DNA of 58,315 nucleotides, counting the filler, from Platydemus manokwari (taxonomy: Eukaryota), in NCBI GenBank assembly GCA_037951405.1. It is 6 parts of 6 records of this genome, joined end to end, with 100 filler letters (N's around TTAATTAATTAA, not from the genome) between each part and the next. Parts side by side here need not be neighbours in the genome. Positions count along the whole stretch, not along the records: positions 29,591 to 39,118 come from JBBMOY011236431.1; 5 more parts are not named here. One strand, written 5' to 3'. A model generated the notes under the pieces. It searched no databases. It was not told where the DNA came from and saw nothing but the letters and a program-made list of their open reading frames with translations. How positions within the stretch are numbered: position 1 is the first letter of the stretch; each line of letters starts with the position of its first letter. Both the position numbers and the translations under genes were made by a program. Below, in pieces: positions 1,565 to 39,118 of the stretch.

Positions 1565-4500
1565 TTATGCCTTTAAAAATTTGCCTTTAACAATGTGCTG
1601 CTTGGATTTGATTACGCCGAGTTTGTTGCTGACAGTTTTACGAGAGTTGTAAATAGGAATTCGTTTACGATTCTTCTCAAGACCCAAACGATTGGTGGGC
1701 TTCTTCACCTTATAGATTCTAACGAGCCAATGCTCAGTGGTATAGGCCTCCTCAATATGGTCCAAAGTGAAATGTTTCCTACCGATTTCGACATTTCTCG
1801 TCCTATCGAAACCTGGAGGCGTTCGGAAGTCGAGTTGTAAATCTCCAAATCGATAATAACTCATTTTATACATCATTGAATTCAACATGATGTGTGATGC
1901 TGCACTGTCAACTCGATATTCACCATTCGGTGTGAAATAATCGCTCTCTTTGATATCTTTTGGATGTTCACCTTCAGCTATTCTCACCATCCATAAAAAC
2001 TTGTTGATATCATCACCCGAATAACCAATAACACCACCAAATATCACCAATACATAATCCACATCCAAATCACGCATGATTCCATAAGCAGCCGATTCAT
2101 TTGATGCCATAGCTTTACCAACGAGAGCAATATGAGAATTATTCCATGTATTATTATCCACTAATGTTGTCCGATTGCCCATACCAGCAATCTGATATCC
2201 ATAATCCCACCATGACATAATACGAGCATCTTCATGTGTATTCTGACTGAGCCAGTAATAAGCTTCACGGAAATCATCGAGAATATTTCGCGATCCATCG
2301 GAATTGTATGTCGCCAATACAATGGATGGACTCGAATAAGCATTTGATGTCACCCAAGTGCAATGAACAACAAAAAGGAACATGACGATGATTAAAACAA
2401 GAATTGCTATGGTTTTAATATTGATGCCCATGAATTCATCACTGACATTAGCAGTGCTTCCTTCCACTGAATTGTTATCACCAGATGATTGGCTATTAGA
2501 TTTCGATTTATCCCCACTTGGACCAGATTTGGCACTTTTTTTCGGTTTGGGGATTTTATCGTACAGCATTTTCTCTTTGGGAGCGGTCGATGACAAAGTA
2601 GCAGTAGTAGTAGCATTGGGAATATTATTCAATGATACCACTGGTTCAACATTGGAATTTGCAACTGGTTGGATTTGATCTTCTTTCAAATACACTTCAA
2701 ACAGACGATTAAACACCACAGCTGCCAACACACAGACGACCGGTGTCAGAATGAGCATCAAACGAACCATGACGCCAGCGAAATACGAAGCACTGATCGC
2801 ATAGAGAATGATAAACACTCGCTCATCATTCACTTGTTTGATGCACAACCAAACACCAGCCGGAAATACGCAAGCCAACATGTGGAGATCGAAGAAAAAC
2901 GAGACCCATGTCGTTGGTTGATGTTCGGAGACACTGGCAATGATTGGAATATGAATTTTGGCATAACCAGTATCCCACAACGAATAGAATCGTCCACTCC
3001 ATGGAGCAATGACACCGAAATATGTCAAAACAATAACGGTGAAAAATACCAATGCTGCACTGAGAGTCACTGCCGAGACAAAAAAATTCCGAAATTGACT
3101 TTGGCTGAGTTTGGATTGAAGGAAACGCAACAGAGCATATGCCTACAAATGAGAAATGATATCTATCAAAATGTCCCTTAATGGCATCGAAATATCATAT
3201 CGACAAGACAATAAACTGATTAAAAACGACTCACTTGTAGAAGAACGAAAACACCAGCTGATGCCATATGTTCGCTCGTTTTGATTGGCTGAAAGCCAAC
3301 AAAAGGAATCTGCATCGAGAATAGAAGTCCCATGATATAAAATGTCGTGTATGCTACATAGATTCTCGAGCTGTACCGTTGCATGATAAGTAAAACAAAT
3401 ACGTGTAATGGAATAAGATTGATAATGAATACATAGCCACCCCAAGCGGAAACCATGTACAAATAGCTCAATGCACAAAATACACTCCACATCATTGTGC
3501 CCGTTTTGACGGACTTGATCCAGAGATAATATGTAAACATCAATGCGAATATGGCGATACCTTCATTATCATAGCTACCGGCCACTGATCGGCTAATATA
3601 TCCCGGCACTATACACGAAATGAAACATATAAAATCAACTTTATTAAATTGAGAAATTATCATTTCGTTATTTCAATTAAATAATCAAATACAGCTCATA
3701 TTTGTTAAAAAATAAGTGTTTATCAAATTAAGAAAAATCTTGTGATATTAACAATTATTTATTGTTTCATGGTTCACTGAACAAGTATACAATCGTAACA
3801 GTTTGGAAAATTTGATATTAGAATGATAAATGTTAAATTGATGCTTATTCATTATTATAAAGCAAAAAATAGGAATTCGCGATTTCCATTGAGAAACAGT
3901 TGAGATTATTGAAAGCGATTAGTCAGAGTTGATAAAAAATAATACATTATTCATATATTTGAATAATTAAATATTATTAGAAATCGAAAATATAAACATC
4001 TCAAACTTCTATGGTAACGACATTAACATTTTTAATAGAAAAATGAATTTTCTGTCAAATAATTTTCAAGATAAAGGTTAAAAATTGCATTAGATATAAA
4101 AATATTGATATGATTTATTAATGAAAATAGTTGTTGTATCATTAATAAATCTGATTTTGTAGAACATAACATCTAGTTTTATTTTAAAATATCGTAAAAG
4201 CTGTTTATCGAAAGTGAAAAAATCATAATCTAGCACTTGACATTTATCTGACGAAATGGATAAATCGCAATTTTTGTGTATGTATCAATAGAAATGAGTG
4301 CACAAAATTAGTCATAAAACATTGCAATTACCAATAGCTATGAAACATCCAGCTAAGAGTCCTGCGCCACTATTCCATAATTCTTTCGTCAACAGAAACG
4401 TAGCAATAACAGTTAATCCACTAAATATCGGCGCTAAAAACACACAAATATCCCTAATGTGCACCGGAAAGTTTAATAATTGCAATACATAATGTATTGA

Positions 4501-4847
4501 CCCTAAATGATTTTTAATATTAATTAATTTTAAATTACTTTTTTACCTGAAGTTAACATCAAACCAGGATAAACAGTACCACCTACTATTCGACCAAGTG
4601 GATACCAAGCTCTCTCATCAAACCAATTAACAAAATTATAAAATCCATTTTCAACCATGTGATGAGTAGCTCGATAATTAAACCATGGATCAAATTCGTG
4701 GATTATACTTTCAAATCGAATAACAGAAAATAAACGTGAACTAAAACCAACGAGCCATGCCAGAGATAGAATAAAAAACGTTAATAAGCTCGTCCATCCA
4801 CTTGGATTTACTAAAAGAGGTTCAGAGTGCTTTGAAGAAATAGCCAT
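1565..4847 (-). CDS. STT3B: Dolichyl-diphosphooligosaccharide--protein glycosyltransferase catalytic subunit, STT3B-type; exons 4847-4547, 4502-4332, 3608-3235, 3142-1565 (~807 aa)
   Basis: ORFs carry [52 protein letters not shown] and [11 protein letters not shown]. Hand-spliced GT-AG introns (44, 723, 92 bp) keep the frame; exon total 2424 nt. The LYDK-containing loop insert and the C-terminus look B-type. Confidence 0.96.
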
Positions 4848-5519
4848 GAAAAAATATAATTGGTGGATGTAATTTAAACGTATGCACTTTTGATTGCTTA
4901 TTTGTAATTAAATAAACAAATTCATTAAAATATTATTTGAAACACTTTCATCAGTACTTTGATTATTCAACTTGAATTTATCTTTATTTAAATGTATTTA
5001 GGAAAGACAATAAAACTAATAATTTTTTAATTTTATTTTATAATCGAAAGAAAATTTATTCAATTGAACCAAAAACTGAAATTAATATTTCATTTCGATC
5101 TTGTAATTTTTAGTTAATTAATCAAAATTAAATTTTATCTTTTTTATTTATTTCGTATCTCTGCTGAGTATAATTTGATGGCTTTCATGTTAAAATGATT
5201 TAGTTATTCTGCTTGACTTTTCAGCACTAACTAAAAATTTGATTACTTTTTAATTATAATATTTATTTTTATGTACTTTTTAATTTTGTGCTATTAATTA
5301 CTTTTAACCTAATTTATATATTTTAAATCTAAAACAGCAAGTATCTTTGCTTGTTATAAGCCTGAAATATTATATTTTGTATATGAAATTTTCATGATTC
5401 ACATTTTTTTATAGAAACAATTAGTAAAAAATACAAGTTCAATTATAAAATCAATTTCCAGAAGATCGCGGAATCATATGAAAGTCATATGAAAGATCTG
5501 AGTACTTCGAAAATTCAAA

Positions 5520-8500
5520 CAAAATCAATTATATTAGATGTTATCTAACTTCACTCTCCCGTTGTTTTTGAGATATTTTCAGCCACTCAATTCTTCGAGG
5601 TTTTGTCTGTCCCTGGAAGTCAAGAAGCACTTGATGTGATCTAAAAAAAATTCAAAATTCAGTGAAGACCTTCATAACGATCTCCATTCTTCTTTATATT
5701 GTGTGGCTCTTTCTTCATGAAGGTATCTTGTGAGTTTCTGTGAATGAATCTTTGACACAACAATTCGCTTCTTCCCATTCTAGCTAAACAGCACTGTATC
5801 TTCAAACAATTCATATTTCTCTAAATTGCAAAAAGATTTGCTTTTCTTGACCCATAAATTAACTCCCGTTTTCGTTTTTCTAAAACCATTTTCGAATGAA
5901 ACTAACAATAGTATCTTGTTGTTGAATCTTACTTAGTTCGTCATTATTTGCAATGGAATGCTCGACAACATTAATAAACCAAATTTTTGCCTTGCCTTCT
6001 TTAGCACCTTGGTTCTTAGTTAAACACTGTGAACAAAATGCTTCGCCTATCCTTGAGAGTCTATACGCATCTCCATGATTTGATCCCTTCCGATATTAAA
6101 ATTCTAAATTTAATCCGGATAAGTTTGCAAAACATGTTTGAAATTGAGGACTAATCGGTATGTTATTTTCTTCATGTATGTCAAGGATTTGTTATCTGTG
6201 CGAGTTACAAATTTCTTTTCAAGTAGACAATGCTTAAAATGCATAGTAAACTCGTGGAATACCAAAAGCTCTTTCCTCGTGACTCAGTAACATTTTTCAT
6301 AACTGTTATGAGTTTTAGAAAGGTGGGGTACTACTCTTTCTTTTCCAGTATTATCCAACTGGCTTAGAACGTCGCCATCGCTCTGAAACTAGTGGTGGTA
6401 TCTAAAATCATCTCTGTATTTGGACCAGGAAAGAGCCAAAATCAAAACTTTGCTTAATTGTTACTTTAAGATTCCAAATTTTCCTCACACTCTGTAGTCC
6501 ACTCCAACTTCTTGTCTCTTCCAGTCATCATATATAATGGACTCGTAATTAATAGGTAGTATTTGATAAATCATATGTAATAATTGCATCGTCTAGAAAC
6601 GACCTCAACCGAGTGATGCAAACAGGTTTAATTGCTTCTTTAATCTTCTTTAATTTGTCGTCAGTAGTTTCTATATCTTCTGCACTAACCATATGACCCA
6701 GGAAATTCAATTTTCTGATTTCAAATGCAAAGAACTGTCCCGTTCTAGTGCTGAGCACTGTTTTAAACTTAGAATCTTCCTCAAGTTTGACCTGATAATA
6801 TGCCTGGCCTAAATCTATAGTGAAGAAATCTGTCACACCATACAGTGAGTTTGATAAAGTTTGGATTTCAGATACAGGAAAAGAAAACTTCTTGGTCTTT
6901 TCGTTTAATTTTCTGAAGTCTAAATACATCTTGATCGATCCAACTTTCTTGCAAGGCGATTTCAAGAAGACTTTATATCAATTCTTGAATTTTGGTTTCT
7001 AAATTTAATGGCTACCTTCTGAGAATTTGTGCAATAGGTTCCCCTTTTGTACGGATCTCATGCTTCACCATTACTGTTAGTCCCAAATCGAACCAAGACG
7101 CCATTAAAAAAGCCATTTTTTATACACCTATTCCATGAAATATCATTCATATTGGCATTATTCTTAAATGCCATTTCGATTCCGTCTTGTCGTGCATTTC
7201 TTTCCCACATCTTTGGCATCATTTGATTCTATCCTGTGTTGAGTGAGATGAAATTCTACAAAAAGAGAAACGAAATTGCACCTTGGAACCCTAGTTTGGC
7301 ACTCTGAACATTTGCCTGTCTACACAGTCGTACAGGCATAGCAGTCAGCCAATCACAGTGAAATTAAATGGTCAATTACAATTGAAAAAAATCCGATAGC
7401 TAAACAAAACACATGTATAGGGATTGACCAATCCAACTAATGTAAAAACTTAAAAACCCAATAAGAACTCAGAAAAACCAATATCAAATCAAATGTGATA
7501 CAACATGAGACAAAAATACACACAGCACGCGAGCATAAAAATCGATGTAAAGATGGACAACAACAACATTTTGTATAGAAGTCAAGTGTTTTATATTAAT
7601 AAATACCCAACACATGCAAGGAATATTCTACAAGTCTTCATCATATCAACTTGTCCGATAAATCTTGGAGAAATTTCTTTTACTACGATGATCTACTTTA
7701 CAAGAATTTGATTGTTCCAAACTATTGGTTTCCTTATTTTCATTAAACTCGATATGCTTGAATTTGATAATACACCAGCCTATCGAACATCAGAACTTTT
7801 AATCTGCGGCTTTCTAATCCGCCTCCAATTACTGTCATTCATTATTGTTATCGATACACCAGGATCACATAACATTTCAATATGTGTACCGCTGCACTCA
7901 ATTTTACTCCACTGTCTACCATCTGTTTTCTGATACATCTGTGAGTGTTTCCTCTTCATTTTGCCATCTCTTACTTTTTTTACTTCTATTCTATCTCTAG
8001 CTGATATGTATCCTATTGAATCAACTCCATTGAAGAGATAAGCACAGGATGTTGATGCCAGTTTTTATCATCTACGGAAACTGAGCTGACACAATCACTT
8101 GCTTCATTTTGGTCTCAATATCGGCTTCATCATCTTCGTCATGAATGTACAGTATTCTCCTCGACCTATTTAACTAGGCTTTCTGGCTAAATGACATTCT
8201 CTGAACACATGTACTTCCTTTCGTATATTAAACTTTACTTAACAGTGGGCATTCAAACTTCTGGTGTTCAAGCTCACCACATCAAAAACATGTTCCTGGT
8301 TTCAAATAATCAACCTTTGTAAAATTTAGAAGGAATAGCCTTCATTGATCTTGTTGGTCTCATATTGTTTGGAGATTCCATATGATTAACTGCTGCACAA
8401 TTATATTCCTTTACACCAAAATCTCTTTCCTGCAGGATTGGACTTGTTTTTTGAAAGAAGTCTCCTTTTGAAAGGTTTTTCTTGGGTTACTTTAAAATAG

Positions 8501-10780: not shown

Positions 10781-11967
10781 TTATCGATCGATTTTCCGAT
10801 TGACACAATTCAATGGATGATTGTCCGACATGTGTTGCCAAAAATCATCGATTTTCGTCGAACTGAAACCACATTCTTCACAAATGAAAATCTTCTCCCG
10901 ACGTTCTTTATAACCGTAAGGAAGGAAAATATTATGCAATTTTTTTAAATGACTTTCCAACGAACAACGCTGAGTGAATGATTTGAAACATTTCTGACAC
11001 TGATAGGGTCTGACTCCTGGAGATAGATGAGGATAAAATTTTATTTTTTTCAAATATTTAATAAACAATAAAATATTGTCATTTAAAGAAAAATTTATTT
11101 CTTTTTACGGTTACTATGGTTATTCATAGAATGGGAGTGAACTATTACATCACTAGAGCAGGACATACAATTGTAAAAATCTATGAAGATATTTTTGTTT
11201 TCTTATATATTACTAATAATTTATATTTATCTCATTAAGATTACGATAATTTTGCAGGTGTATAGTAGAGTTTGAGCTGAGAATGTATGCATTAATATAA
11301 TAATATACATATTTTAATTAGCTAATGAATATAAACATTAAAACAAATTATACCGACCCGTATGAGTTCTCGTATGCCTTTTCAAATCGAAAGTGTCGTT
11401 AAATCCTTTCAGACAGTATTTACAAAGATATTTACGAATTTTACTATGACTCTTAACGTGCCGATTAAAGAGACGGCTATTGGTGAATTCTTTGTTGCAT
11501 GTAGGACAATGCCAGAGATTTTTCATTTTTTCATCTGAAAAAAAAATCAACAGAATATTAAAAACCGATATGATTGTCAGTTGATTCTTCATGGTGATTT
11601 ACTTTTATTTTCCGTCAAATCGGCTATGGACAGAAAGTTTTGTTCGTCTGCTAATGGATTTTTTATGCCTGCCCCATTATTGACAAATTCAATATTCGAT
11701 TTTGGTATCTACAATTTCCGACAACTGGAATCAATATATCGATTAAATGCATATTCAATTTACCCAATTGATATTGTCTTTGACTATTCTACTAAATGGC
11801 CAATAATGTCGCCTGTCCATTAGCCATGAAAGCTGACGAGGAAATGGATAAAACTTAGTATGGAAATTTCCATAATCTACTCTTTCATTTCCTCCTAAAA
11901 TGGCTTCAATTCCGAATTTCAATTGTTTAGATGAACTACTACTGTTTTTGCTGTCCGACGATAACAT
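10781..11967 (-). CDS. ovo: Ovo/shavenbaby/OVOL-family C2H2 zinc-finger transcription factor; exons 11967-11764, 11708-11603, 11534-11358, 11016-10781 (~240 aa)
   Basis: Ovo-specific motif IEFVNNGAGIKNPLA in exon 2. Four fingers including C.[40 protein letters not shown].H and YGYKERREKIFICEECG. GT-AG introns of 55, 68 and 341 bp; exon total 723 nt in frame. Start ATG inferred; an in-frame ATG at ~12039 is an alternative. Confidence 0.93.
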
Positions 11968-19010: not shown

Positions 19011-19957
19011 ATGGATGGGAAGTATTTTACCGCTTTAGCTACTTATCTGGACGGACTGGATATGTTTCCGTATTTTAATATATGCCATTATTTACTTATT
19101 AGTTTACATATGCGTCAAATATCTCCAGGTATTCATAGTTATTGAATAATATAAAATGACATCTCTTTTAGGGAATAAGTCATTTTCTCGACAACATCCA
19201 TTAGCAAGCTGGTCAGCTACAATATTAATGTGTTTTGCAGGATCTGTTATATCAAATTTTTTAATTGGTGAACCCATTGTGATACCTTTTAAGATTCATG
19301 TAAATATATTACATGCCAGTTTATGTTGGTAAGATATAATTAAACCTGACAGAATTTACTATATTTCCAATTTTATTTTAATCCATATTTCTCAAATAAA
19401 ATGATTCATAATCTTTCATAAATGTTTCCAATTCAGGTATTTGATGAATTATTTTCCACTCGATCTCGTATTCAAAATATGCTCGTTGATTCCAGTTTAT
19501 ATGGCGATTTGTTTAGCGAAAGAATTGTATAGAGCTAAAATGGTCAATATCGCAATCGCTGTAGCTTCTAAAAGATATCCAGACTCCATGATTGTCTGGC
19601 TTATGATTGGTCTAGCAAAGGGCTGTGGTGAAGATATGTTGTTGCCTTTGGCTTATTCCTGCATGGGTGGCCATGAATCGAGTGGCAATTTCTTGTTGAA
19701 TCCCACTTTGTTAGTAATACACATAATAAATATATATATATATAAATTATATTAGATAATATATACAAATTATTATCATTTATTAACATTAATGATGATG
19801 ATTATGATTATTATTTGATTTGATTTATATTTTCAGTAATGTTAAAGGTAGCCTTGCTGTTGCAATCATGTTTGCAATGGAGAAATTACAGAAGGTACCA
19901 TTGGCGTCCAGTCAGCTATTTTTAGCCGCTATTCTCTTTCTTGCTTATTTTCGGTAA
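19011..19957 (+). CDS. TMEM38: Trimeric intracellular cation channel (TRIC/TMEM38) family; exons 19011-19128, 19172-19328, 19437-19709, 19837-19957 (3' end may splice onward at 19953)
   Basis: Spliced translation gives DMFPYFNICHY, FSRQHPLASW, MCFAGSVISNFLIGEP, WYLMNYFPLDL, KELYR, GLAKGCG and NFLLNPTFNVKGSL, all typical of TMEM38. Introns of 43, 108 and 127 bp are GT-AG and phase-compatible. Confidence 0.9.
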
Positions 19958-20509: not shown

Positions 20510-20609
20510 NNNNNNNNNNNNNNNNNNNNNNNNNNNNNNNNNNNNNNNNNNNNTTAATTAATTAANNNNNNNNNNNNNNNNNNNNNNNNNNNNNNNNNNN
20601 NNNNNNNNN
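20510..20609. other. Assembly linker (N44-TTAATTAATTAA-N44); equivalent linkers at 9853-9952, 29491-29590, ~39119-39218 and ~48776-48875
   Basis: Identical 12-mer giving stops in all six frames, centred in 100-bp N runs. Confidence 0.97.
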
Positions 20610-22745
20610 CACCATACCTATAGATCCATTTATCGATGATCGCCTTCGAAATACTTGTTTCATCTTGTCGAATAAGTGGCACCAAGTTTACTAACTTACT
20701 GAATCTATCGACAATAACCAACAAATATCTGGTTTTAGTCATAAATTCCCCAAAGTGCACAACACCAATAACGATCTTTTCCAGAGGCTCAAACTTTTCC
20801 CTTGGAATCATAATCTCTTTAGTTCGCCCAGTGTATACCTTCCATTTAGCACAAATATCACAATTCCTCACTTCATGTTCGATGTTTCGTGACGTATTTG
20901 GCCAGAAGAATATTTTTTGAATATAATCGACCAATTTCTTATTGCCAATATGGCACAACTCTTCATGAAGGTATCTCGTAAGTTTCTGCGAATAAACCTC
21001 TGACACCAGATAGACCAGAAAGCTTTTGTAAATCAAGTACTTGAATATAGTATTCATTAGACTCTGACACGTTGCTGGTGCGGTACATAAACCAAAAAGT
21101 AGTCTGTTAAAACAGAACTGCCCAGTTCTAGTGCTAAATGCCATTTTTATTTTAGAATCTTCCTCAAGTTCAACCTAATAATATGCTTGGCCTAAATGTA
21201 TCGTGGAGAAAATTGTCACTCCATACACCGAGTCCAATAGCTTTCAAGAAGATTTTCTATCAATTCTTGAATTTTGGTTTCTAAATTTATTGATTGCCTT
21301 CTGGGGTTTTGAGCAATAGGTTTCCCTTTTGTACGGATTTCGTGCTTCATGAAATAAAAATGGAGCCATTTTCTTTTGTACACCTATTCAATGAAATATC
21401 GTTCTGATCAGTGATACTCTTCAGAACCATTTCGATTCTGTCTTGGTCGCTTATCTCTTTCCTACATCCTTGGCATCAATTAATTTTATCGCTTCAAGGA
21501 ATATTCCACAAGTCTTCATCATGTCAACTCCTTCGATAAATACTGGTGATATTTCTTTTACTACAAAGATCTCCTTTACTAGAATTTTGTTTTTCCAAAC
21601 TATTGGGATCCTTATTTTACCTAGACACAATTTGTGTGTATTGGAGAATTCACCAGCCAATCGAACATCAGAACTTTAAATCTGCGGCGCTCTAATACGC
21701 TTCCAGTTGTTTTCGTTCATTACAGTTATTGATGCACCATAATGCCATAACATTTCAATATGTGTTTTCAATATAGGCTTTCTGGCTAAATGACATTCTC
21801 TGAACGAATGTCCTTCTTTTCCGCATATCAAACATTTATTCCGCAGTGGACACTCAAATTTCCGATGTCCAAACTCATCACATCAAAACAAGCTCCTAGT
21901 TTCAAATAATCATCGCATGGTATAAGTTTTCCTCTACAATCGTTGTAGAATTTCGAAGCAATAGCCTTCCTTGATCTAGTTGGTCCCTCATTGTTTGGAG
22001 ATTCAGTGCGATTAATTGATGCTCGATGATATTCTTTTACACCAAAATCTCTTTCCTGTACGATTGGACTTGTCTTTTTGAATGAAGTCTCTTTCTGAAA
22101 GGTCTTTCTTTGGTCACTTTGAAATACCTACTGAGCATATGTCTTCTTAATGGTATTTAAGGGCTTGGTAGGAGTTAACCTCTCAAAATTGACACCCAGC
22201 TCTCTTCTTCTATAGAAGGCAGGGTCGAGAGTAAATGACTCTTTCAATTTCTTACTATTTAGACCTTGCAGAATAAATAATCTTGAAATTTCTTCAAGAG
22301 TGTTTTTCTTGTCAAACACTTCCAAAACTAGCTTCTTTACCCGAACTTCGAAACTGCGATATTTTTCATCCGGTCTTCGTTGTATTGTTGCCAAATCCTG
22401 AATCTTGTCGTACACTGTTTTGGCATGTGAAAATGTTTCTAAAAGCCATTTTTCAATTTCTTCATTTGAAACAGCCTCTTTGAAACTGCTGAATTCTTAT
22501 CACAGCTGTTTAGCGTCATCTCTCAAAAGCATGTCGAATGCAAATGATAGTTCCATTTGAATAAAGGTCGCGAAATCTTTGGTTGTTTGGAACCATTTCT
22601 CAGTGTCTTGGATTGATGAATCGAAGCTTGTGGGTTTCGGAATTAATAGCTCCTGAGTTTTTTATGGCAGATTCGCAAAAAATTTCTGCCTCTCTTCTCG
22701 TTTGGCTCTAGTCAGAGCGTTAATTTCGGTGTGTTCGCCAATAAA
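20610..22745 (-). mobile_element. Degenerate, internally deleted Ty3/Gypsy retrotransposon, copy 2 (gag, partial protease and RT, integrase), cut by the linker
   Basis: Gag-like IQDLATIQRRPDEKYRSFEVRVKKLV; RT AFSTRTGQFCFNRLLFGLCTAPAT; integrase HEELCHIG..FFWP..VRNCDIC and YLLVIVDRFSK..WIYRYG. PBS-like TGGCGAAC at 22740-22733. Confidence 0.92.
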
Positions 22746-29400: not shown

Positions 29401-32400
29401 TCAATAATATTTTAAATTTATATTGGGTCTATAACTTAATAACCGGAATTTGACACCAGATGTAAACACTTGTGTGTGTGCTGTAGCAAANNNNNNNNNN
29501 NNNNNNNNNNNNNNNNNNNNNNNNNNNNNNNNNNTTAATTAATTAANNNNNNNNNNNNNNNNNNNNNNNNNNNNNNNNNNNNNNNNNNNNACTATGCAAA
29601 ATGTACTTTAAATAAATAAATATTTTTCAAAAAAAACCGAAATTTTAAGGTTATACACCTAATAATTTATAAAATTATTCTGTTTAGGACTTGTAATTTT
29701 TATTTGTGTTATCAGTCTCTCATTTATTGATGGAAGATCACCTTTGTCTTGATCAGTCTCTATGAGTCCTAATCAAGTCCATGATACAAACTATTAAAAC
29801 CTTTTATTTGTTTTTTTTCCACGTCACTTACAATATTATGCGATGATAATATGTGTGGCAACAATGATCTTGATGATTTTAAAACGATCAGTCTCAATTA
29901 CTATTACTACTGTATAACACTTTACTTCGATCAATGAGCATACAAGTTTGATGTACAAATATTTATTAATATAACAACAATAGCACCAAATATTAAAATG
30001 ACACTGACTTTGTTGATACACTATACAACTAATAATTATACGAAATGACCCTATAGAATTTCTTTTACTTTTTAAGGAGGATGAGGAAAAACTTGATATT
30101 AGAAGATAAACGACAGGCTATAATACTGATCGGTCGTTTAAATAAAAATCGTACTCACATTACTAATTATTGGTATATAACAATGTCTTCTTCTATGGCA
30201 ATACGTCTGTTGAAAATACGAGTGTCTAGTGGTTTCCTGGTTAATTTTAAAGGGGCAAGGTTCTGATGTTTTGAACTTCTATTTAAAGGTTTTCACGACT
30301 GGGTTTTAATCGTTCCACGTGATGATTTATTTGGGTACATTAAAGTTTTTTCCATTGGAATTTCAATTAAAATTCTATTAATTTAAAATTCTATTGATTA
30401 ATTTTCTGCCTTTGAATTATCGTTTGCAAATATAAACTATTAACCCTCATTTAATAGTATATTCAATATTATTAAATTCCGATTTATTAATTTATCACGT
30501 ATATTTTCCAAACCGTATTCTTATTATTTTTCCTTTATTGATTATCTGTCCAGAAATCCTTAAAAAGGGTGAAAATAAATTAATACATTTATATTTCCTC
30601 ATTCATAAAAAATATAACTTGTTACAATTTTCATGACTTGTTACAAATTAATACTGATAAAAATTATTACATAATAAACATGCGAGAGTATAAGATAAAA
30701 TTTTTACAATGAATTTTTCGATATTGTTCACTTCATCATCACGAAAATTATTTAAATACTGTTAATTTTTGAATATTAAAAGGATTAAAATAAAATTGAA
30801 ATTCCTATTTAAAACAGATAAAATATAAAAATGTGGGAATTTTTATATTTTAATAAAAAATGGAACACATTTAAAATTTGATTAAATATGATGTAATAAA
30901 TAATATATTTTTGTGCCGTTAAAACATGACTTCTGATTTAAATCTCGAGTATGAAGAAATTTTCCATACTAACAACGATAATCAACTCAAATAAGTCGAA
31001 CTGTAATAATGGCAGCGAAATGTAATGACATTGAATTAATAATAGCCAGTGATATAATAAAATAACCCAATGTTACTCTAATGTAGGTGGAATAAAAATG
31101 AATGAGAATAGATTAATAAACAACAATTTCCATGAATAATTCATGATTAATGAAAAAAAATTAAAATATTCTGTGAAAAATTGAGGAATGAAATTAACCC
31201 AATAAAATATTATAAAATAAAATATTAATCAAATAACACTAGAAACTCCAATTATACCTTGAAAATAATATGAATAAATTATTAATTTGGTTAGTATCTT
31301 AAGGGAATTCTTAAACAAATAAAATAGTGTTGAGGTCAAATTCGAAATCACCAAATTATTACTGTAGACTTGATTCTGAACAGCTGACTAATTACGGACT
31401 CCAAAATTTAGAGGACTATAACTTTATTTTCAAATTGCGTACTAACCATTACGACTTATAAACATACACAAACATACTCAAACTATTAAACATAAACAAA
31501 ACCTGTGTTCAAACTGGCATTTTTGGAAAGAATGGACGCTTTTTAATATATGATAGCACACAATATTAAATTTATTAATTTAAAAAAATTTTTCTAGAAC
31601 ATTTTATTAACTTTTTATTTTTTGATTTAACTAAATTAGTAAAGATTTTCTTTTAGAATTTTTCATAGAATATTTATTCAACAATTTTAATTATTTTTTA
31701 AAAAGTTTACTTTTCAATACTCAACAATAGTTTCACAAAGATCAGAACCAAACCGATTGGATTGATTTTGCCTTAATGAGACAAGGTTTCATATAAATCA
31801 AAAGCAGTTTGAAAATTATTTTCACTTAATTTTTAAACTTATTTATTTGAATTGATGTGATCTATTCATTGTGTTGTGTAATAAAAATGTTTTGTTAACA
31901 AGAGTTGGTTGGTTTTGTTACTGTCAAGCAGGTCAAAATCATTTCACATGCATAATGATCATTCATTATCATAGCATCACCGTGTGTCTGGTGAAAAAGT
32001 TGTCAATACTATTAGTGACAGATTCACAGGTTGGATTTGGAGTCAGACATTTAATTTAAACTTATAGAGCTACGTTCTCCTTGCTTTCATATAAGTGATT
32101 TAACGATATACGTGAAGAAACATCAAGTATAATGCTAAATTACTACTTGATGATCGTGGGAACTCAGAGGTTGAGATAATCCGTAAATAGGATCAATAGA
32201 GATTCCATAATAAAATAAATAATTATATAAACAAAATAAAACAAATGACCAGAAAAGTAACAGAATTATTCATTATTAAATCAGCCAATCAATTCTGATT
32301 AAGCTATCCTTTTGAGTCAGACATAAAACTAAGTCCAAAAAAAAATAATAAATAAAAAAAAATTATAGCATTTTAGTGATCGAACCGACATCATTAAAGG

Positions 32401-32520
32401 TTGTAGCTTTATTTCTATCTATCACAAAGTATCACAGATTTACAATTAGAACTTCACTTCTAAATGCACACATATTACTTAGCACGAGTTACAAATTTAA
32501 TATAATATCTCAACACGTAA

Positions 32521-32852
32521 CCAAAACTTGGCTTCCAACAGTAGACCATCTTTATATTGGTATTTATATTCGATATATGTGTGCAATTTTTTGTGTTACG
32601 CTTGTATCACATTTTGATTTGTTATTTTCTTTTCTATGTTTCTATTTGGATTATTTGTTTTGTGCATGAGTGAGATCGGTCAATCCCTATGTGTGCTTTG
32701 TTGTGTGGCTATGTCCTTTTTTCCAATTGTGAGTTACCACCTAGGTCTTCTGTGATTGGTTAATCGTTATGGCTGCAATGTTTGAAGTGCCAAAACAATG
32801 ATCACATGGTGCAAAACCGTTTTTCTTTTGTAAGACTTCCTCTTACTCAACA
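32521..32852. mobile_element. Second, inverted and diverged copy of the solo-LTR-like element at 7237-7612
   Basis: Colinear reverse-complement blocks (ccatcttta, tgtatcacattt, ggtcaatccctat, ctgtgattgg, gtgccaaa, ggtgcaa); ends in actcaaca. Confidence 0.72.
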
Positions 32853-33448
32853 TTAATGTAAGAGCAAGCTATAAATTGACCAAAAATTAAAGTGATATCA
32901 GATACCAACAATTTATTACAATGTATGATTAGAGTGTACCTTTAATGTAAAGGAAAAATTACTGCAAATATTTTTAAGATTTTCTAATTGAAACAAGTAG
33001 TAAAAAGAGAGAGAGCAAGTTATTTATGATTTTATGATTTTTTTTAATCTGCCAAACTCAACCCAATGGAGAAATTGTTAGTTGTTTAAATTTATATTCA
33101 AATATTACACCATCTGTTAAAATAAGCTGAATGTAGGACACACGGGAATAACAATGTCGATCATCTATCGCAGACTAACATTGAATATCTGTTAATGTTA
33201 TTTTATATTGACGGACTTTTATAAAAATACATAAAATCATGATTTTCCGGATAAATATTGCAATGAATTTTGCAAGACACAACAGATAATTGAATCCATA
33301 TAAAATACCAAGAAGTGTGAGATAAATAATTGAAATGTTTTATCCTAAATGCAGTGGCATTATTTTTTGATCAATATTTATGCGATGAAGACATGTTTTA
33401 ATAGAGATGAAGTGATTTCAGCGGATAATATTATGATTATCCTGTACA

Positions 33449-33685
33449 TTATTGATTGTCACCAATTCTTCTAAAGTAAATCGGCTTACGATAATTGATA
33501 AACTGCTTCTGTTGAAGACTCTCACTGGAAATAGAACTCATTGAATGCCATTTATTAGCGAATTGAAGATTGCTTCGTGATTGATATAAAGATATAGGAC
33601 GATGATCAATTGACTGCAATAAATATCGATCATTCCACTTATTAATATTATCAATTTTCATTATTCTTTCAACAAGAGAACACAT
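33449..33685 (-). CDS. Hypothetical 78-aa small protein
   Basis: True ATG and a hydrophilic, protein-like composition unlike the FILK-rich random ORFs. CCAAT box ~80 bp upstream. No recognised domain. Confidence 0.35.
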   Translation of the reverse strand: MCSLVERIMKIDNINKWNDRYLLQSIDHRPISLYQSRSNLQFANKWHSMSSISSESLQQKQFINYRKPIYFRRIGDNQ

Positions 33686-35478
33686 TTGAATTAATGCTCA
33701 AAACCCGATTACAATGAATGGAAAAAGTATCGGTTATTAGTGAAATATTACATGTTTTCTGTGATTGGCTGAATTATTGTTGACATACAAGCTGATACGT
33801 AAACAATCAACATCATAAATGATGATTGAAAATAATGATGTATGTGGGCTAGAAAATTTATCAATTCTCAAGGAAATGTTTAACATAGGGAAAAGTGTGA
33901 CCTTTTATTCTTTTGATTTGTGGATGGTTTGTGTAGAAACTGGAAAACAGAAGCAGCAGTCATTATGTAATTCAACCCGTTAATAATAATTCAATTTTAA
34001 TTATAATTTATGGCAATATTAGACTGTCAAAGTTTTAAAAATAATACAATAGAACAGACAATATAAAACAATATGAACACTAGCGGCTTTTTGTATATTT
34101 ATCAGTATTGTCAAAGTCGATAATGTCCTACTGCATAAATTAATTAGTTAACCTATTCAGAGTTTAGTTATAATATTATATTTTTTCATATCAATAATAA
34201 TAGACATTAAAATCGTTACTGTGAATGATAGTTTCGATGTGGAAAGAATTCACAAGGTTTCAGTGGATGTAAGAATGTAAATAAGTTGTTGAATAAAATA
34301 ATCTAACTAAATGAAAACAATTGGTAAAATATTAGTAAAATTAATAAAATTTAGAAATTGATTTTCGAAAAATATGTAAAATTACCGTAAAAACATAATT
34401 AAAATAAATTATTTTTATTGGATAATCTTATCCAATGAATTTCAAGATAAATTGTAGAAAATCAATAAAATTCCTGATTGATTTCAAAATATCAAATCAT
34501 TCGATATAAGCTTCTGAATAAAGTGTGAAATGAAAATATTAGTAGATCTCACAAAGAATTTCGAAACTCTGTTTTTTCTTCCGAAATTGATAAGTAAAAC
34601 ATTATAAATTCATAGGTTTAACAATGGATATTTCGATAAACATGAAACAGAATCAAGTAAAAATTAATTATTAGAACCAAAATAATCTACAGAAGGATGT
34701 ATATTCAATCTACTTTAAACAATTGAAGAGTGATCATAATGATGAACCCTTGGGTTGATAAAAATATCGAGGAAAATTTTCTCATAAAAAGTTCACGGGA
34801 AGAAATGTTTTAATGTTTTGAATGAAATATTCACTATCAGTACGATGTAAATATTTAAAACATTCCTTCAAATTATAAAAGATTTATTCAGGTCATAAGA
34901 TGTGTTACAGACGTTATAATATATACAATGAGATTACACCATGTAAAATCTTGAGAAAATATTCAATGTAGCTTCGACATCCTTTATCTTTTAATGAATC
35001 CGGTATCGAATTTTGTTGAAAATTCGCAATCAATTTCTAAAAATCATTCGATTATGTCGAGGCTAATTGTTAATAAATATTTCTTTAAATTATATTTATA
35101 AAATTATAATTATTAATCATCTAACCAATATTATAAAACTTAATAACAGGCGATCTTGAAGTGGGATTGGACAAAATTATCAAGCGCAGTAAGATAAGTA
35201 CTCAAAAACAGCATGACAGTTATACACAGTAATAACATTTGTGCACCAAACAAATCAAATTGAAATTAATTATACAATTATGACTTTTATGATAAGGTAG
35301 ACGAAAATAAAATTACGCAAGAATAGATGATACTTTATTCCATTCAGTCTCTATAGAAACAATCACTATAGTTACTCATATCAAAAAATTCAGTGGAAAC
35401 AAAAGTTATGAATGTAACCATAAATCGATAAAAAGATAAGATAAAATTTTATTCATACAAAATATAATCTAAACTAAT

Positions 35479-36765
35479 TTATACTTCAGTTATAAAATCT
35501 TCATAATTAATGAAAATTCGTTCACCATTGTTTACATCGAAATAAAATCGGTTCCCTAAATCTTTCTTCAAGTATGTTTTGAGACCGGTGCTTTGATTGT
35601 TGATAAATATTTTCCCATTGATTTCTTGCTTTAAATAATGTTTTTCACCTGATAAATCAAAGAAAAACAATCGCCCATTGATTTCCTTTTTCAAACGCAA
35701 TTTATGGCAATTAGATGAATGACAAAATTCATTTCCATCGCTACTTGATTTCGGTTGAACGAAAAGATGTTCGTATAAATTTTCATTGTAGTTATCATTG
35801 ACATTGAAGAGTTTCGGCGAACTATAAATGTATTCATTTTCCAAATGCGATTGACGGATATTTTTGTTTCTTTCACCCTCGAAATTCATATAAACAGCAT
35901 CATATGCACTACAAATCATCGACGGTTGTTTCGATTGTAAATTCATACCAAACGAGTTCACAGATAAGCTCGGCCTAACATCGTACACTGGCGGCACCAT
36001 AGACACTTTACACATTTCTTCAACTTGATTTGATGTTAAGGATGAAACTTGAGTTCCTGGATGATTTTTGTTCAATTCGGGTTTATTTGTATAAAGGCGT
36101 TTATAAATACAAATTCCGATAACGATTATTATTAAAAATATAAGACACCATATCACCACCAATATTGTGATTTGAATTGGCAAATTCAGTCGTTCAAATA
36201 ACGAGTAAAGTTGATAGATGCCTCCATTATCCGTTTGTGCTTCCAAAGGAAAATTCGTTAACGATCTATCAGTTTTCTTGAATAATTCGACCGTGCTGGT
36301 AAAAATTTTATTTTTTTCGAATCTCATAACATTTGAAACGAAATTTTTCCTGTTCTCCACACTACCAACTCGAAAGAAATAAACCGTCAATGTCATGCCA
36401 TCGGCATAATTATTAAATCGAATCTCTACTCTTATCGAATTGTTATTTTTTGCAACACCTTCGATTTTCATATATGATTTTTCCATGGTTTCAATTGGAA
36501 AATAATTGGCTTGTGAAACAACGATCACATTAGCTACTGGCATTTCGTCTCTGTGGATTGTAAAAACCAATTCCGACATATCGTTTTTGTCGGTTTGTGA
36601 AAAATTGTATTGGAAAATAAATGTCTCATGGTCTAGAATTGGGAAATTTCGGAGAATTGCATATGGTTCACGTGCAATAGGTTGGACTTTATTTTCAGAA
36701 TATCGACGGCATAATTCCACGAAATTGAAATAAAATATTAAAAACACGAAAACAGAATTTAGCAT
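35479..36765 (-). CDS. Intronless 428-aa single-pass type I membrane protein of unknown family
   Basis: 1287-nt ATG-initiated ORF in very AT-rich DNA. N-terminal hydrophobic signal peptide, ~175-aa beta-rich ectodomain, TM helix ITILVVIWCLIFLIIIVIGICIY followed by KR, Tyr-motif tail, and C-terminal ITEV. Confidence 0.85.
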   Translation of the reverse strand: MLNSVFVFLIFYFNFVELCRRYSENKVQPIAREPYAILRNFPILDHETFIFQYNFSQTDKNDMSELVFTIHRDEMPVANVIVVSQANYFPIETMEKSYMKIEGVAKNNNSIRVEIRFNNYADGMTLTVYFFRVGSVENRKNFVSNVMRFEKNKIFTSTVELFKKTDRSLTNFPLEAQTDNGGIYQLYSLFERLNLPIQITILVVIWCLIFLIIIVIGICIYKRLYTNKPELNKNHPGTQVSSLTSNQVEEMCKVSMVPPVYDVRPSLSVNSFGMNLQSKQPSMICSAYDAVYMNFEGERNKNIRQSHLENEYIYSSPKLFNVNDNYNENLYEHLFVQPKSSSDGNEFCHSSNCHKLRLKKEINGRLFFFDLSGEKHYLKQEINGKIFINNQSTGLKTYLKKDLGNRFYFDVNNGERIFINYEDFITEV

Positions 36766-37689
36766 TGAATTTTTTTAATTATAAAATTAAAACAAAGATT
36801 ATGTTCTTATTAATAATATTGAAATTTAAATCAATTCAAAATTATTGAAATCGAATTTAAAATGAATTTTAAAATAATTTCAAAACTCGTTCGCTTATAA
36901 AATTCTAAAAAGAAAGCATGTTAATTGTCTAAATTAGTTATTCTTATAGAACTCTTTGCTACATAACATTAATAAATTTTATTTTACTTTTTTAAAAATT
37001 ATTTAAAATTACAGCCATAACAAAATGGTTAGATAGCAAATCAGCGATGAGATTTCTTAATACCAAAAGCAAAAGAAACAGCTGCAAGAACAGGGAAACA
37101 CAAGACTCTATTTACAATATCTCTACAATGTATTGTTATTTAAGATTTTGAATATGATTTCCGCGCCACATTCACATAAACCAGTAGTTACATTTCCTGC
37201 TGTTTATAATAAGTGTATACTAGAAGCGTACAAAGTAAGAATTTTAAATGCATGCTACATCGCAGAAAAGTTGAAATCAGTGTTTTAATTAAAAATGGAA
37301 ACTTTTGTAAAATAAAAATTGAATGATATACTATATCTAGGAGTTTGAAGCAGGGCAAATAAAGAATACCAAAACCATATGTATACACTGACTAAGCTTG
37401 TGTGATAAGTCATGGATTATACTCTGAAGTATTTGCAACAAATATTATTATTTTGTGAAGCCATGATAACACAACAAACTATTGTTAGAATTCCTAACGT
37501 TCTCATTTTATTAGTATCAGAAAGAATTTGATATATATCTAATTATAATTCCGTGTTGCTTGATTTCACTTGACCTAACTATATTATTTTATATTTTCTT
37601 CATAACGGTAGTAATCACTTTGGATTTTTTACATAAATTTACGTTTTTTGACGAAATCTTAAATCTCATTTACTAAATATTTGATTTTA

Positions 37690-38290
37690 ACATAAATAAA
37701 ATGGCTTTCGAGTTCTTTCTAAGAATAAATTCTTTACCATACAAGTGATGGTTAATGTGATGACAGAAATTATATGTTCCTGTCTATCGATAAAACATCA
37801 TTTTTCATAGTCATCTTTTAGCAATAGAACCATCACTATTCTGGGTATCGGAGTCGATAAATTTTTTGAAGCTTTTTTAAATTTCTCTGTTATGTGTCTT
37901 GATTTAGCTCTGCCCTTGATGTGTCTGCTATAGCCCTTGATTTTTGTGTTCCATGTATAAATATTCTCTAGTAGCCATTAATTTCTAATTCCTTATCTCT
38001 CCTGATTGCAATACGTTTCACAGTGTTCTCGATATTGTGTCTGATTAAATTTCTCAAAACCCATCTTTGTAGCCGTTCTCGTCTCAAACATAGCACGGTA
38101 CAACCATTGGATTATTGTACTTTCTTGATATATGTTCTGAATTGTTAATAGTTGTCCTGGTAATTATTCTCTTTATCTACTTCTTTACCGTATGGCTTGT
38201 TTTACTTCTTCTTATCCATTAATATTATCTCATTATGTTCACATGCTTGACCTAGCCCAACATTTTGACATAGTAATATTAAAATATCGT
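37690..38290 (-). pseudogene. Decayed coding-like relic, probably TE-derived or env-like
   Basis: Minus frame IQWLYRAMFETRTATKMGFEKFNQTQYREHCETYCNQER*GIRN*WLLENIYTWNTKIKGYSRH continues through isolated stops. Confidence 0.25.
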
Positions 38291-39040
38291 TAACAAATTT
38301 TGAAAAACTTTTCGATTAGGTTCCATACTATGTATTTCTCTATCATTAGTCTTTTTCGTTGTTGTCGGTACTTGTAAAATCTATTCTGACTTCGTTTTTA
38401 TCACAAATCACAGGCACATGTTGAGATTTGTTTATATTTGAAATTGATGTAAAATATGCCATTCATGATAATTATTTTTATTGTTTTATAAAAAATCATA
38501 ATTTTTAAGATAAATGTAAAAATAAATGTTAAAATAAATCTAATACAAATAAAAAGTTAATTAAAAAATAATATATATATATATATATATATTAAAAAAA
38601 TTGAATAAAAAATTGAATAAAAATTAAATTTAAATTATGAAAATATAATGATAAATGAAAATAAAAATCAGAAAAGTTAGAAATAAAACAGATTATTTTT
38701 AAGTAATTTGATTCTAAGTATTTTTGATTTTAAAATTAATAAATTATATTAATTAATTATATTATGATAATTATATCAATCATTTTTATATTTATATTAA
38801 AATCGTATGCTGTCACCAATCTGCGAAGGAAATCGACGAAGTTATAATTGTAGTTTATTTATCCTAATTTATTCTGATTTAAACTGGTTCATTAGATGAA
38901 TATGTTTTGGAAGCGATTGAAAGGAACATTTATAAGTATGCAATGTGATTTTAAATTTAGTTGTAATAATCAATTACATGATTGACAGACACTGAAGAAG
39001 TAAACCTTATAATGATTATATTTACTGTCCTTATAACTAC

Positions 39041-39055
39041 ATTTATTATTATTGC

Positions 39056-39118
<63 letters not shown>
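39041..39118. repeat. (ATT)n microsatellite running into a linker
   Basis: Directly visible. Confidence 0.95.

What the first reader, a model, noticed from the sequence alone, without database searches (positions are those of the whole stretch)
35479..35706. Three ~22-aa beta-hairpin repeats resembling bacterial choline/glucan-binding (CROP) repeats in a cytoplasmic tail
Seen: RLKKEINGRLFFFDLSGEKH / YLKQEINGKIFINNQSTGLKT / YLKKDLGNRFYFDVNNGERIF. The first two share DNA-level similarity (cccattgatttc at ~35615 and ~35674), showing internal duplication. Established: cell-wall-binding repeats of pneumococcal CBPs, glucansucrases and clostridial toxins follow roughly GW..INGK.YYFD..TG. Inference: an undescribed metazoan beta-hairpin repeat domain, either convergent or horizontally acquired, on the predicted cytosolic side. 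The GW of true choline-binding repeats is missing.
Basis: partly seen in the sequence, partly recalled or inferred. Interest (0 to 1): 0.7.

Follow-up and report, generated by a model that had tools for sequence, protein, structure and literature searches.

The report
Orphan Ig-like receptor's beta-repeat tail
The three short repeats are real and end the predicted inner tail of a small, apparently undescribed family of predicted immunoglobulin-like surface receptors in a probably flatworm-like animal; they are not choline-binding repeats and likely form a small docking module for signalling.

Summary
In detail: three units of 20, 21 and 20 aa end a single-exon 428-aa ORF (35479-36765, minus strand). 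The protein has a signal-like start, a predicted cysteine-less V-set-like Ig domain, one membrane helix and a tyrosine-rich tail. Four paralogues in the same genome carry the same three-unit block. The choline-binding reading fails: Pfam 12.7 bits against a cut-off of 27, 0 of 15 units hold Trp, profile-profile probability 1.1%, and only this copy (0 of 4 paralogues) weakly hits lysins. The units share their register with bacterial beta-meander repeats, two of which carry the PBCV basic adaptor domain (96-97%), but those were picked by this profile and an unrelated periodic protein scores almost as well, so descent and gene transfer are unproven. The model (pLDDT 64) is a seven-stranded meander that matches small barrels only weakly. 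A Tyr strand, YEx[LIV][YF], precedes the block in 4 of 5 paralogues. Best reading: a lineage-restricted Ig-like recognition or adhesion receptor whose repeat block is a cytosolic docking module, possibly gated by tyrosine phosphorylation. No expression or binding data.

The parts
35479..36765 (-). Single-exon ORF, 428 aa plus stop; predicted type I membrane protein (P0001)
   Evidence: same DNA in one piece with no differences in run X1, which may be the source of this DNA
36700..36765 (-). Signal-peptide-like hydrophobic start (aa 1-22, approximate)
   Evidence: hydropathy peak 1.81, helix 2-24 in the model; no signal-peptide predictor was run
36271..36672 (-). Ectodomain aa 32-165, predicted V-set-like Ig beta-sandwich without Cys or Trp
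   Evidence: block pLDDT 66-82; Foldseek nanobodies prob 1.00, E 1.6e-3; VIA myelin P0 Z 8.7, rmsd 3.1, 113 aligned; 0 Cys, 0 Trp
36097..36165 (-). Predicted membrane helix (aa 201-223)
   Evidence: hydropathy 3.5; helix 195-225
35824..35910 (-). Low-confidence (likely disordered) tail with Tyr motifs: ITIM-like at aa 286, YxN at 292, NEYxY at 310
   Evidence: YMN and NEYxY recur in L002
35755..35775 (-). Conserved Tyr strand YEx[LIV][YF] (aa 331-337) ahead of the repeats
   Evidence: 4 of 5 repeat-bearing paralogues; strand 332-336 in the model, at pLDDT under 50
35638..35697 (-). Repeat 1 (aa 357-376)
35575..35637 (-). Repeat 2 (aa 377-397, 21 aa)
35515..35574 (-). Repeat 3 (aa 398-417)
35503..35514 (-). 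Closing partial unit that ends the seventh strand (aa 418-421)
   Evidence: aligned in 5 of 5 paralogues; strand in both models
35448..35453 (-). AATAAA about 25 nt after the stop; weak evidence in 27% GC DNA

Best explanation
The three repeats are the C-terminal block of a five-member paralogue family of predicted single-pass receptors, and they likely fold into one small cytosolic beta-meander that would serve as a docking module, unrelated by any test here to choline-binding repeats. Shown: the ORF, the repeats, the paralogues, the conserved Tyr motif. Predicted: an Ig-like outer domain, the membrane helix, seven antiparallel strands. Inferred mechanism: the outer V-like domain binds a cell-surface partner and clusters the receptors; tail tyrosines in acidic context (YxN, YExL) are phosphorylated and recruit SH2 proteins (general knowledge of IgSF receptors); the repeat block buries its aliphatic face (unit positions 2, 10, 12, 20) and offers an aromatic and basic face (1, 3, 9, 11, 19) to a partner protein or acidic membrane. 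The YEx[LIV][YF] strand may pair with the meander as an eighth strand, which would couple phosphorylation to the module. Origin most likely by local triplication of a two-strand unit, converging on the same pattern as bacterial PBCV-adaptor-type repeats.
For: Five genes on five contigs carry three units plus a closing strand after a membrane helix; four different repeat queries returned the same five, at 29-37% identity to this copy, so the block is old and kept open. Units score 30.4 against other paralogues' units, -2.2 against choline-binding units, -16 to -20 when shuffled. Ectodomain matches V-set folds by two aligners; relatives of it continue into Cys-bearing Ig-like domains (Pfam Ig_3 E 0.052, below cut-off). 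Modules shuffle: L025 has the ectodomain but no repeats and one tail Tyr; L004 has repeats but no ectodomain. Single-sequence model: seven strands with short turns; best structural matches are small barrels. Repeat region GC3 0.31 equals the rest of the gene, 0.32.
Against: No function is tested. Model confidence is modest (pLDDT 64 alone; about 48-65 in the full-length model; pTM 0.47 and 0.35) and barrel matches are Z 5.7 or less, which the tool counts as ordinary. Ectodomain E-values (1.6e-3) and Z (8.7) are borderline, and the Atlas lead points elsewhere (Methyltransf_FA, 0.88). No ITAM in any disordered tail. L004 lacks the Tyr in the upstream strand. A bacterial protein, P0009, aligns without gaps over 68 columns and finds four paralogues in the reciprocal genome search, which fits common descent as well as convergence.
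Confidence: 0.58

Rival explanations
1. The repeat block descends from a bacterial beta-meander repeat of the PBCV basic adaptor type, was acquired by gene transfer or ancient descent, and was grafted onto the receptor tails.
For: hhalign 97.4% (E 1e-11, 68 columns) to P0009/P0019 and 96.2% to P0004/P0008; P0004 and P0008 carry PF08789 above cut-off; 15 of 15 units score higher against these than against choline-binding units; P0009 has the same three units plus closing strand and scores 47.6 bits forward, 17.8 reversed; reciprocal search ranks paralogue L003 first, E 5.5e-6.
Against: The bacterial set was chosen by this same profile and cut on a D/G anchor, so the scores are circular. An unrelated 10-aa-period protein, P0012, scores 44.1 bits; 24 of 30 library hits are in another register by eye. 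No family member hits PF08789. In the reciprocal search 14 of 18 matches are not family members and the window copy is absent. No compositional step. The look-alikes come from unnamed records, with no donor clade.
Confidence: 0.17
2. The block has no signalling partner of its own; it oligomerises the receptor or tethers its tail to acidic lipid through its basic and aromatic face.
For: K+R 11-14 against D+E 5-11 and 7-11 Phe/Tyr per block in 5 of 5; an open seven-stranded sheet with one aliphatic face needs a partner surface (inference).
Against: The block sits about 130 or more residues from the membrane, and the net charge is small in three paralogues; a conserved Tyr strand accompanies it in 4 of 5.
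Confidence: 0.15
3. The units are degenerate choline/glucan-binding (CW_binding_1, CROP) repeats.
For: Same 20-aa period and two Gly in register; family units score -2.2 against choline-binding units, above the shuffled -20.2 (sd 1.7); this copy hits phage lysins or amidases in 8 of 9 matches at E 0.4-8, Choline_bind_3 at E 0.13 and an endolysin PHROG at E 0.056; choline-binding and CROP chains top the Foldseek list.
Against: All of these are non-significant and copy-specific: 0 of 4 paralogues hit such lysins; 0 of 15 units hold Trp; 0 of 30 library hits carry a choline-binding family; hhalign 1.1%; Foldseek rows to those chains have TM about 0.15-0.30 and rmsd 10-14 A; PF01473 finds nothing in this genome while the Cpl-1 control scores 98 bits.
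Confidence: 0.04
4. The gene is silent, or the contig belongs to another organism in a mixed assembly.
For: The assembly holds GC-richer, CpG-depleted contigs too (L019: GC 0.42, CpG o/e 0.67); no conserved gene was found on this contig.
Against: Five long open frames with conserved architecture; receptor contigs match the window's other stretches in GC (0.25-0.30) and CpG o/e (1.0-1.4); signal, membrane helix and Tyr tail are a eukaryotic receptor layout.
Confidence: 0.06

Closest known systems
Choline-binding / CW_binding_1 repeats (PF01473, PF19127; LytA, Cpl-1, glucansucrases, clostridial CROPs)
   Same: About 20-aa tandem units with a beta-hairpin, an NG turn in some units and a second Gly in the same register.
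   Different: No Trp, no TGW, Lys where the consensus has Trp or Met; predicted continuous two-strand-per-unit meander, not hairpin plus linker; predicted cytosolic; far below Pfam cut-off; profile-profile 1.1%.
PBCV-specific basic adaptor domain (PF08789) and unnamed bacterial meander proteins P0004, P0008, P0009, P0019
   Same: Same unit register ([DE]xxG turn, aromatic pair, DxxG turn, K-hydrophobic-Tyr); P0009 also has three units and a closing strand.
   Different: No member reaches PF08789; the bacterial proteins are secreted-type or of other architecture; homology not separated from periodic convergence.
Hydractinia Alr proteins (bioRxiv 10.1101/2022.03.04.482883; abstract and section 9 read)
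   Same: Invertebrate family of divergent IgSF receptors whose V-set domains lack diagnostic motifs and are seen by structure prediction; Tyr motifs in tails.
   Different: Alr proteins have three Ig domains, invariant cysteines, many ITAMs and one gene cluster (abstract, section headings); here one Cys-less domain, single-exon genes on separate contigs, no ITAM, and a folded C-terminal repeat block. No sequence link was tested directly.
Myelin P0 / sodium-channel beta subunits (single V-set type I proteins)
   Same: Best structural matches of the ectodomain; one V-like domain next to the membrane.
   Different: 10% identity or less, no B-F disulfide or C-strand Trp (features recalled from general knowledge), long tail with repeats.

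Membership tests
Choline-binding / CW_binding_1 repeats | Tandem units of about 20 aa (PMC4929436) | tested here: met
   20/21/20 aa
Choline-binding / CW_binding_1 repeats | Pfam score above cut-off | tested here: not met
   Choline_bind_3 12.7 bits vs 27, 1 of 5 members; PF01473 no match in the genome; control Cpl-1 98.1 bits
Choline-binding / CW_binding_1 repeats | Consensus TGW...WYY with two Trp forming the choline site (PMC4929436, passages read) | tested here: not met
   0 of 15 units hold Trp; position 3 is aromatic in 17 of 21 lysin units and in 0 of 15 here. The 21 of 21 Trp at position 10 is by construction, as units were cut on it
Choline-binding / CW_binding_1 repeats | Profile-profile similarity | tested here: not met
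   hhalign 1.1%, 16 columns; 0.3-7.1 bits on four lysins
Choline-binding / CW_binding_1 repeats | 14-aa hairpin plus 6-7-aa linker stacked as a beta,beta-3 solenoid | tested here: inconclusive
   Model shows seven strands with short turns and superposes poorly (rmsd 10-14 A), but pLDDT is only 64
Choline-binding / CW_binding_1 repeats | Binds choline or glucan | not testable with these tools
   Needs a binding assay
PBCV basic adaptor domain (PF08789) | Pfam score above cut-off | tested here: not met
   Not listed for any of 5 members at E up to 10; the genome search also found none, but its control rang nowhere
PBCV basic adaptor domain (PF08789) | Same unit register as proteins that carry the family | tested here: met
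   hhalign 96.2% to P0004/P0008, which were selected by this profile
PBCV basic adaptor domain (PF08789) | Common descent | tested here: inconclusive
   Periodic decoy P0012 44.1 bits vs P0009 47.6
IgSF V-set receptors | Ig beta-sandwich fold | tested here: met
   Predicted only: Foldseek prob 1.00, TM(target) about 0.5-0.6; VIA Z 8.7
IgSF V-set receptors | B-F disulfide and C-strand Trp (recalled from general knowledge) | tested here: not met
   0 Cys and 0 Trp in this ectodomain
IgSF V-set receptors | Pfam Ig-family match | tested here: not met
   0 of 8 ectodomains; a downstream domain of relatives hits Ig_3 below cut-off
ITAM/ITIM immunoreceptors | Paired YxxL/I (ITAM) in the tail | tested here: not met
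   None in 5 of 6 tails; the one pattern hit, in L004, lies inside the repeat block
ITAM/ITIM immunoreceptors | ITIM consensus | tested here: inconclusive
   One match each in 2 of 6 tails, at non-equivalent positions; no chance control run

The most novel reading that the evidence does not exclude
An animal lineage grafted a bacterial-type beta-meander repeat onto cysteine-less Ig receptors and uses it as a new intracellular signalling domain: seven repeat strands are closed into a barrel by an upstream YEx[LIV][YF] strand, so phosphorylating that tyrosine opens the domain. The wider family may be a polymorphic recognition system, since two 48%-identical outer domains join a 99%-identical constant region.
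Probability: 0.1. Interest if true: 0.8.

Novelty: new variant of a known kind. Interest (0 to 1): 0.45.

Why it matters
Folded cytosolic domains on IgSF receptors come from a short list of families (general knowledge); a repeat-built beta module tied to a conserved tyrosine strand would add one, and the family gives a testable candidate for cell recognition in a lineage where the searches found none described. It is also a caution: a single copy can mimic choline-binding repeats through one variable turn, and the likeness disappears when paralogues are included.

Tried and rejected
Complex prediction of the Tyr-strand peptide with the repeat block gave no answer (score 0.02, alignment not used); it is not counted either way. 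No RNA holder was listed. Laying run X1 on the STT3 stretch gave almost no cover, so contig depths could not be compared. Word-indexed searches found no relative of the full protein (0 of 2563 candidates) or of the ectodomain profile (0 of 7425, longer proteins only). Atlas: nothing usable for the repeats; Methyltransf_FA at 0.88 with 129 shared features for the ectodomain, a lead only. Solved-structure sequence search: FGF1 at E 0.018, not followed up; nothing for the ectodomain under E 0.05. No choline-binding chain is among the 50 VIA rows shown, which does not exclude them. Viral fold library: nothing under E 0.001. NCBIfam and PHROGs: nothing under E 0.01. No named genome was found for P0009/P0019; DNA-pattern scans with the family alignment could not run. 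Weak genome hits L006-L008, L013, L016-L018, L020, L021 are simple tandem repeats or other DNA and were dropped. The DNA 12-mer was rejected as independent evidence. Literature searches with no relevant paper; one search found one paper that only lists the PBCV domain in a table. These cover open-licence PMC and bioRxiv only; no supplements were read. Earlier findings: nothing by sequence or words; two unrelated notes in this genome.

Full report
Observation. The finding is the 3' end of a single-exon ORF on the minus strand, 35479-36765, 428 aa, in the fourth stretch of the pack (29591-39118, GC 0.27), which is contig G000:C1236431. The three peptides are there as quoted, as units of 20, 21 and 20 aa followed by a closing strand. 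Their mutual similarity is far above chance (0 of 100,000 shuffles). The shared 12-mer is at 35614 and 35674, but resampling codons at fixed amino acids gives as long a run in 16% of trials, so it only restates the shared EING.

The protein. Hydropathy gives a weak N-terminal peak and one strong membrane segment near aa 201-223. An AlphaFold2 model from a five-sequence alignment has a beta ectodomain at pLDDT 66-82, a low-confidence tail and seven strands over the repeats. The ectodomain matches V-set Ig chains: Foldseek probability 1.00, best E 1.6e-3; VIA Z 8.7 to myelin P0, rmsd 3.1 over 113 residues. Both are borderline by the tools' own notes. It has no Cys or Trp and no Pfam Ig hit in 8 of 8 family ectodomains. 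Support comes from relatives in the same genome (L027/L032, L038, L039) in which the same domain is followed by Cys-bearing Ig-like domains (Ig_3 E 0.052).

The family. The repeat block finds four paralogues, L002-L005; queries with each paralogue return the same five genes (counts are lower bounds). All five have a hydrophobic start, a membrane helix and the block near the C-terminus. L004 lacks the ectodomain; L025 has it but lacks the block and has one tail Tyr. A YEx[LIV][YF] motif lies 10-25 residues ahead of the block in 4 of 5, and L004 keeps the hydrophobic strand without the Tyr. No ITAM occurs in the disordered tails.

Organism. STT3B from another stretch of the pack is animal and groups with Macrostomum and Schistocephalus (SH-aLRT 95, quick tree, long branches; 47 of 120 hits used). 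The receptor contigs match the pack in GC and CpG, unlike one GC-richer contig tested. A flatworm-like source is therefore likely but indirect.

Choline-binding test. The likeness is detectable for this copy only: Choline_bind_3 12.7 bits against 27, 8 of 9 phage matches at E 0.4-8 are lysins or amidases (three were fetched and the match lies in their choline-binding block), and choline-binding chains head a non-significant Foldseek list at rmsd 10-14 A. None of four paralogues hits such lysins. PMC4929436 (passages read) gives the consensus TGW-b-(K,Q)DNGSWYYLN-x-SG-z-M, a 14-aa hairpin with a 6-7-aa linker, and two Trp at the ligand site. Here 0 of 15 units hold Trp; positions 3 and 19 are Lys in 11 of 15 each; ING occurs in 2 of 15, both in this copy. 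Family units score -2.2 against 21 lysin units: above shuffles (-20.2), so period and Gly pattern do agree, but far below 33.7 within the lysins. The family profile gives 1.1% against the lysin profile. A profile search of 1.84 billion proteins returned 30 hits, none with a choline-binding family.

What it resembles instead. Six of those 30 hits are in the same 20-residue register by eye (P0004, P0008, P0009, P0013, P0019, P0024); P0004 and P0008 carry PF08789 above cut-off and WW below it. hhalign gives 97.4% and 96.2%, and P0009 finds four paralogues in the genome. Against descent: the set was picked by this profile, most other hits are 10-11-residue periodic decoys, one of which scores 44.1 bits beside 47.6 for P0009, no member hits PF08789, and codon composition shows no step. 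It works like, or at least looks like, that repeat type; membership is not met and transfer is unproven. The only paper found on the PBCV domain lists it in a table of virion DNA-associated kinases (PMC3281028, one passage read).

Structure and mechanism. The single-sequence model of the block has seven strands with short turns, pLDDT 64; its best matches are small barrels at Z 5.7 or less, which may be only a common arrangement. The column pattern alternates an aliphatic face (positions 2, 10, 12, 20) with an aromatic and basic face (1, 3, 9, 11, 19); this face assignment is my inference. I read the block as a cytosolic docking module on an Ig-like recognition or adhesion receptor that signals through tail phosphotyrosines. 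The upstream Tyr strand is called a strand in the full model (aa 332-336, pLDDT under 50) and could complete an eight-stranded barrel, giving a phosphorylation switch; this is a hypothesis. The nearest described analogue is the Hydractinia Alr family (abstract and section 9 read; other rows seen as listings only).

Novelty and verdict. No relative was found outside this genome for the whole protein or ectodomain (both word-limited), and no paper in the searches made. It is a new variant of a known kind: a lineage-restricted IgSF-like receptor family with an unclassified repeat module. The headline link to choline-binding and CROP repeats does not hold. Interest 0.45.

Noticed in passing
L038:361-1010, L039:1-640, L060:1-593: Two outer domains of the same family, 62.5% identical in DNA (250 of 400) and 48% in protein (67 of 140), switch to 150 of 152 identical bases and both run into one shared contig that encodes further Ig-like domains. 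Either highly diverged alleles, as in recognition loci, or paralogues homogenised by conversion.
   Followed up: partly
L032:3005-4060: Intron-containing relative with the V-like domain, a Cys-bearing Ig-like domain and a membrane helix, unlike the single-exon repeat-bearing genes.
   Followed up: partly
L003:125-1675: Paralogue tail holds four or five copies of a 21-aa unit with a YP motif, a second, recent tandem repeat in the same family.
   Followed up: no
window 1565-4907: STT3B oligosaccharyltransferase gene with introns and a 525-aa open exon frame; groups with flatworms.
   Followed up: partly
window 10781-11104: C2H2 zinc-finger exon; looks like ovo from memory, untested.
   Followed up: no
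window 19405-19755: TRIC channel exon.
   Followed up: no
window 6549-8064 and 20554-22496: Decayed LTR-retrotransposon-like pieces; reverse transcriptase fragment at 6552-6977 below Pfam cut-off.
   Followed up: no
L008 / L019 (G000:C1557779): GC 0.42, CpG-depleted contig with an RNase H-like frame, unlike the window's DNA; the assembly may mix two organisms.
   Followed up: partly
P0009, P0019 (library proteins): Small secreted-type proteins made of three acidic meander units, with no Pfam family and no match in the named-genome collection.
   Followed up: partly
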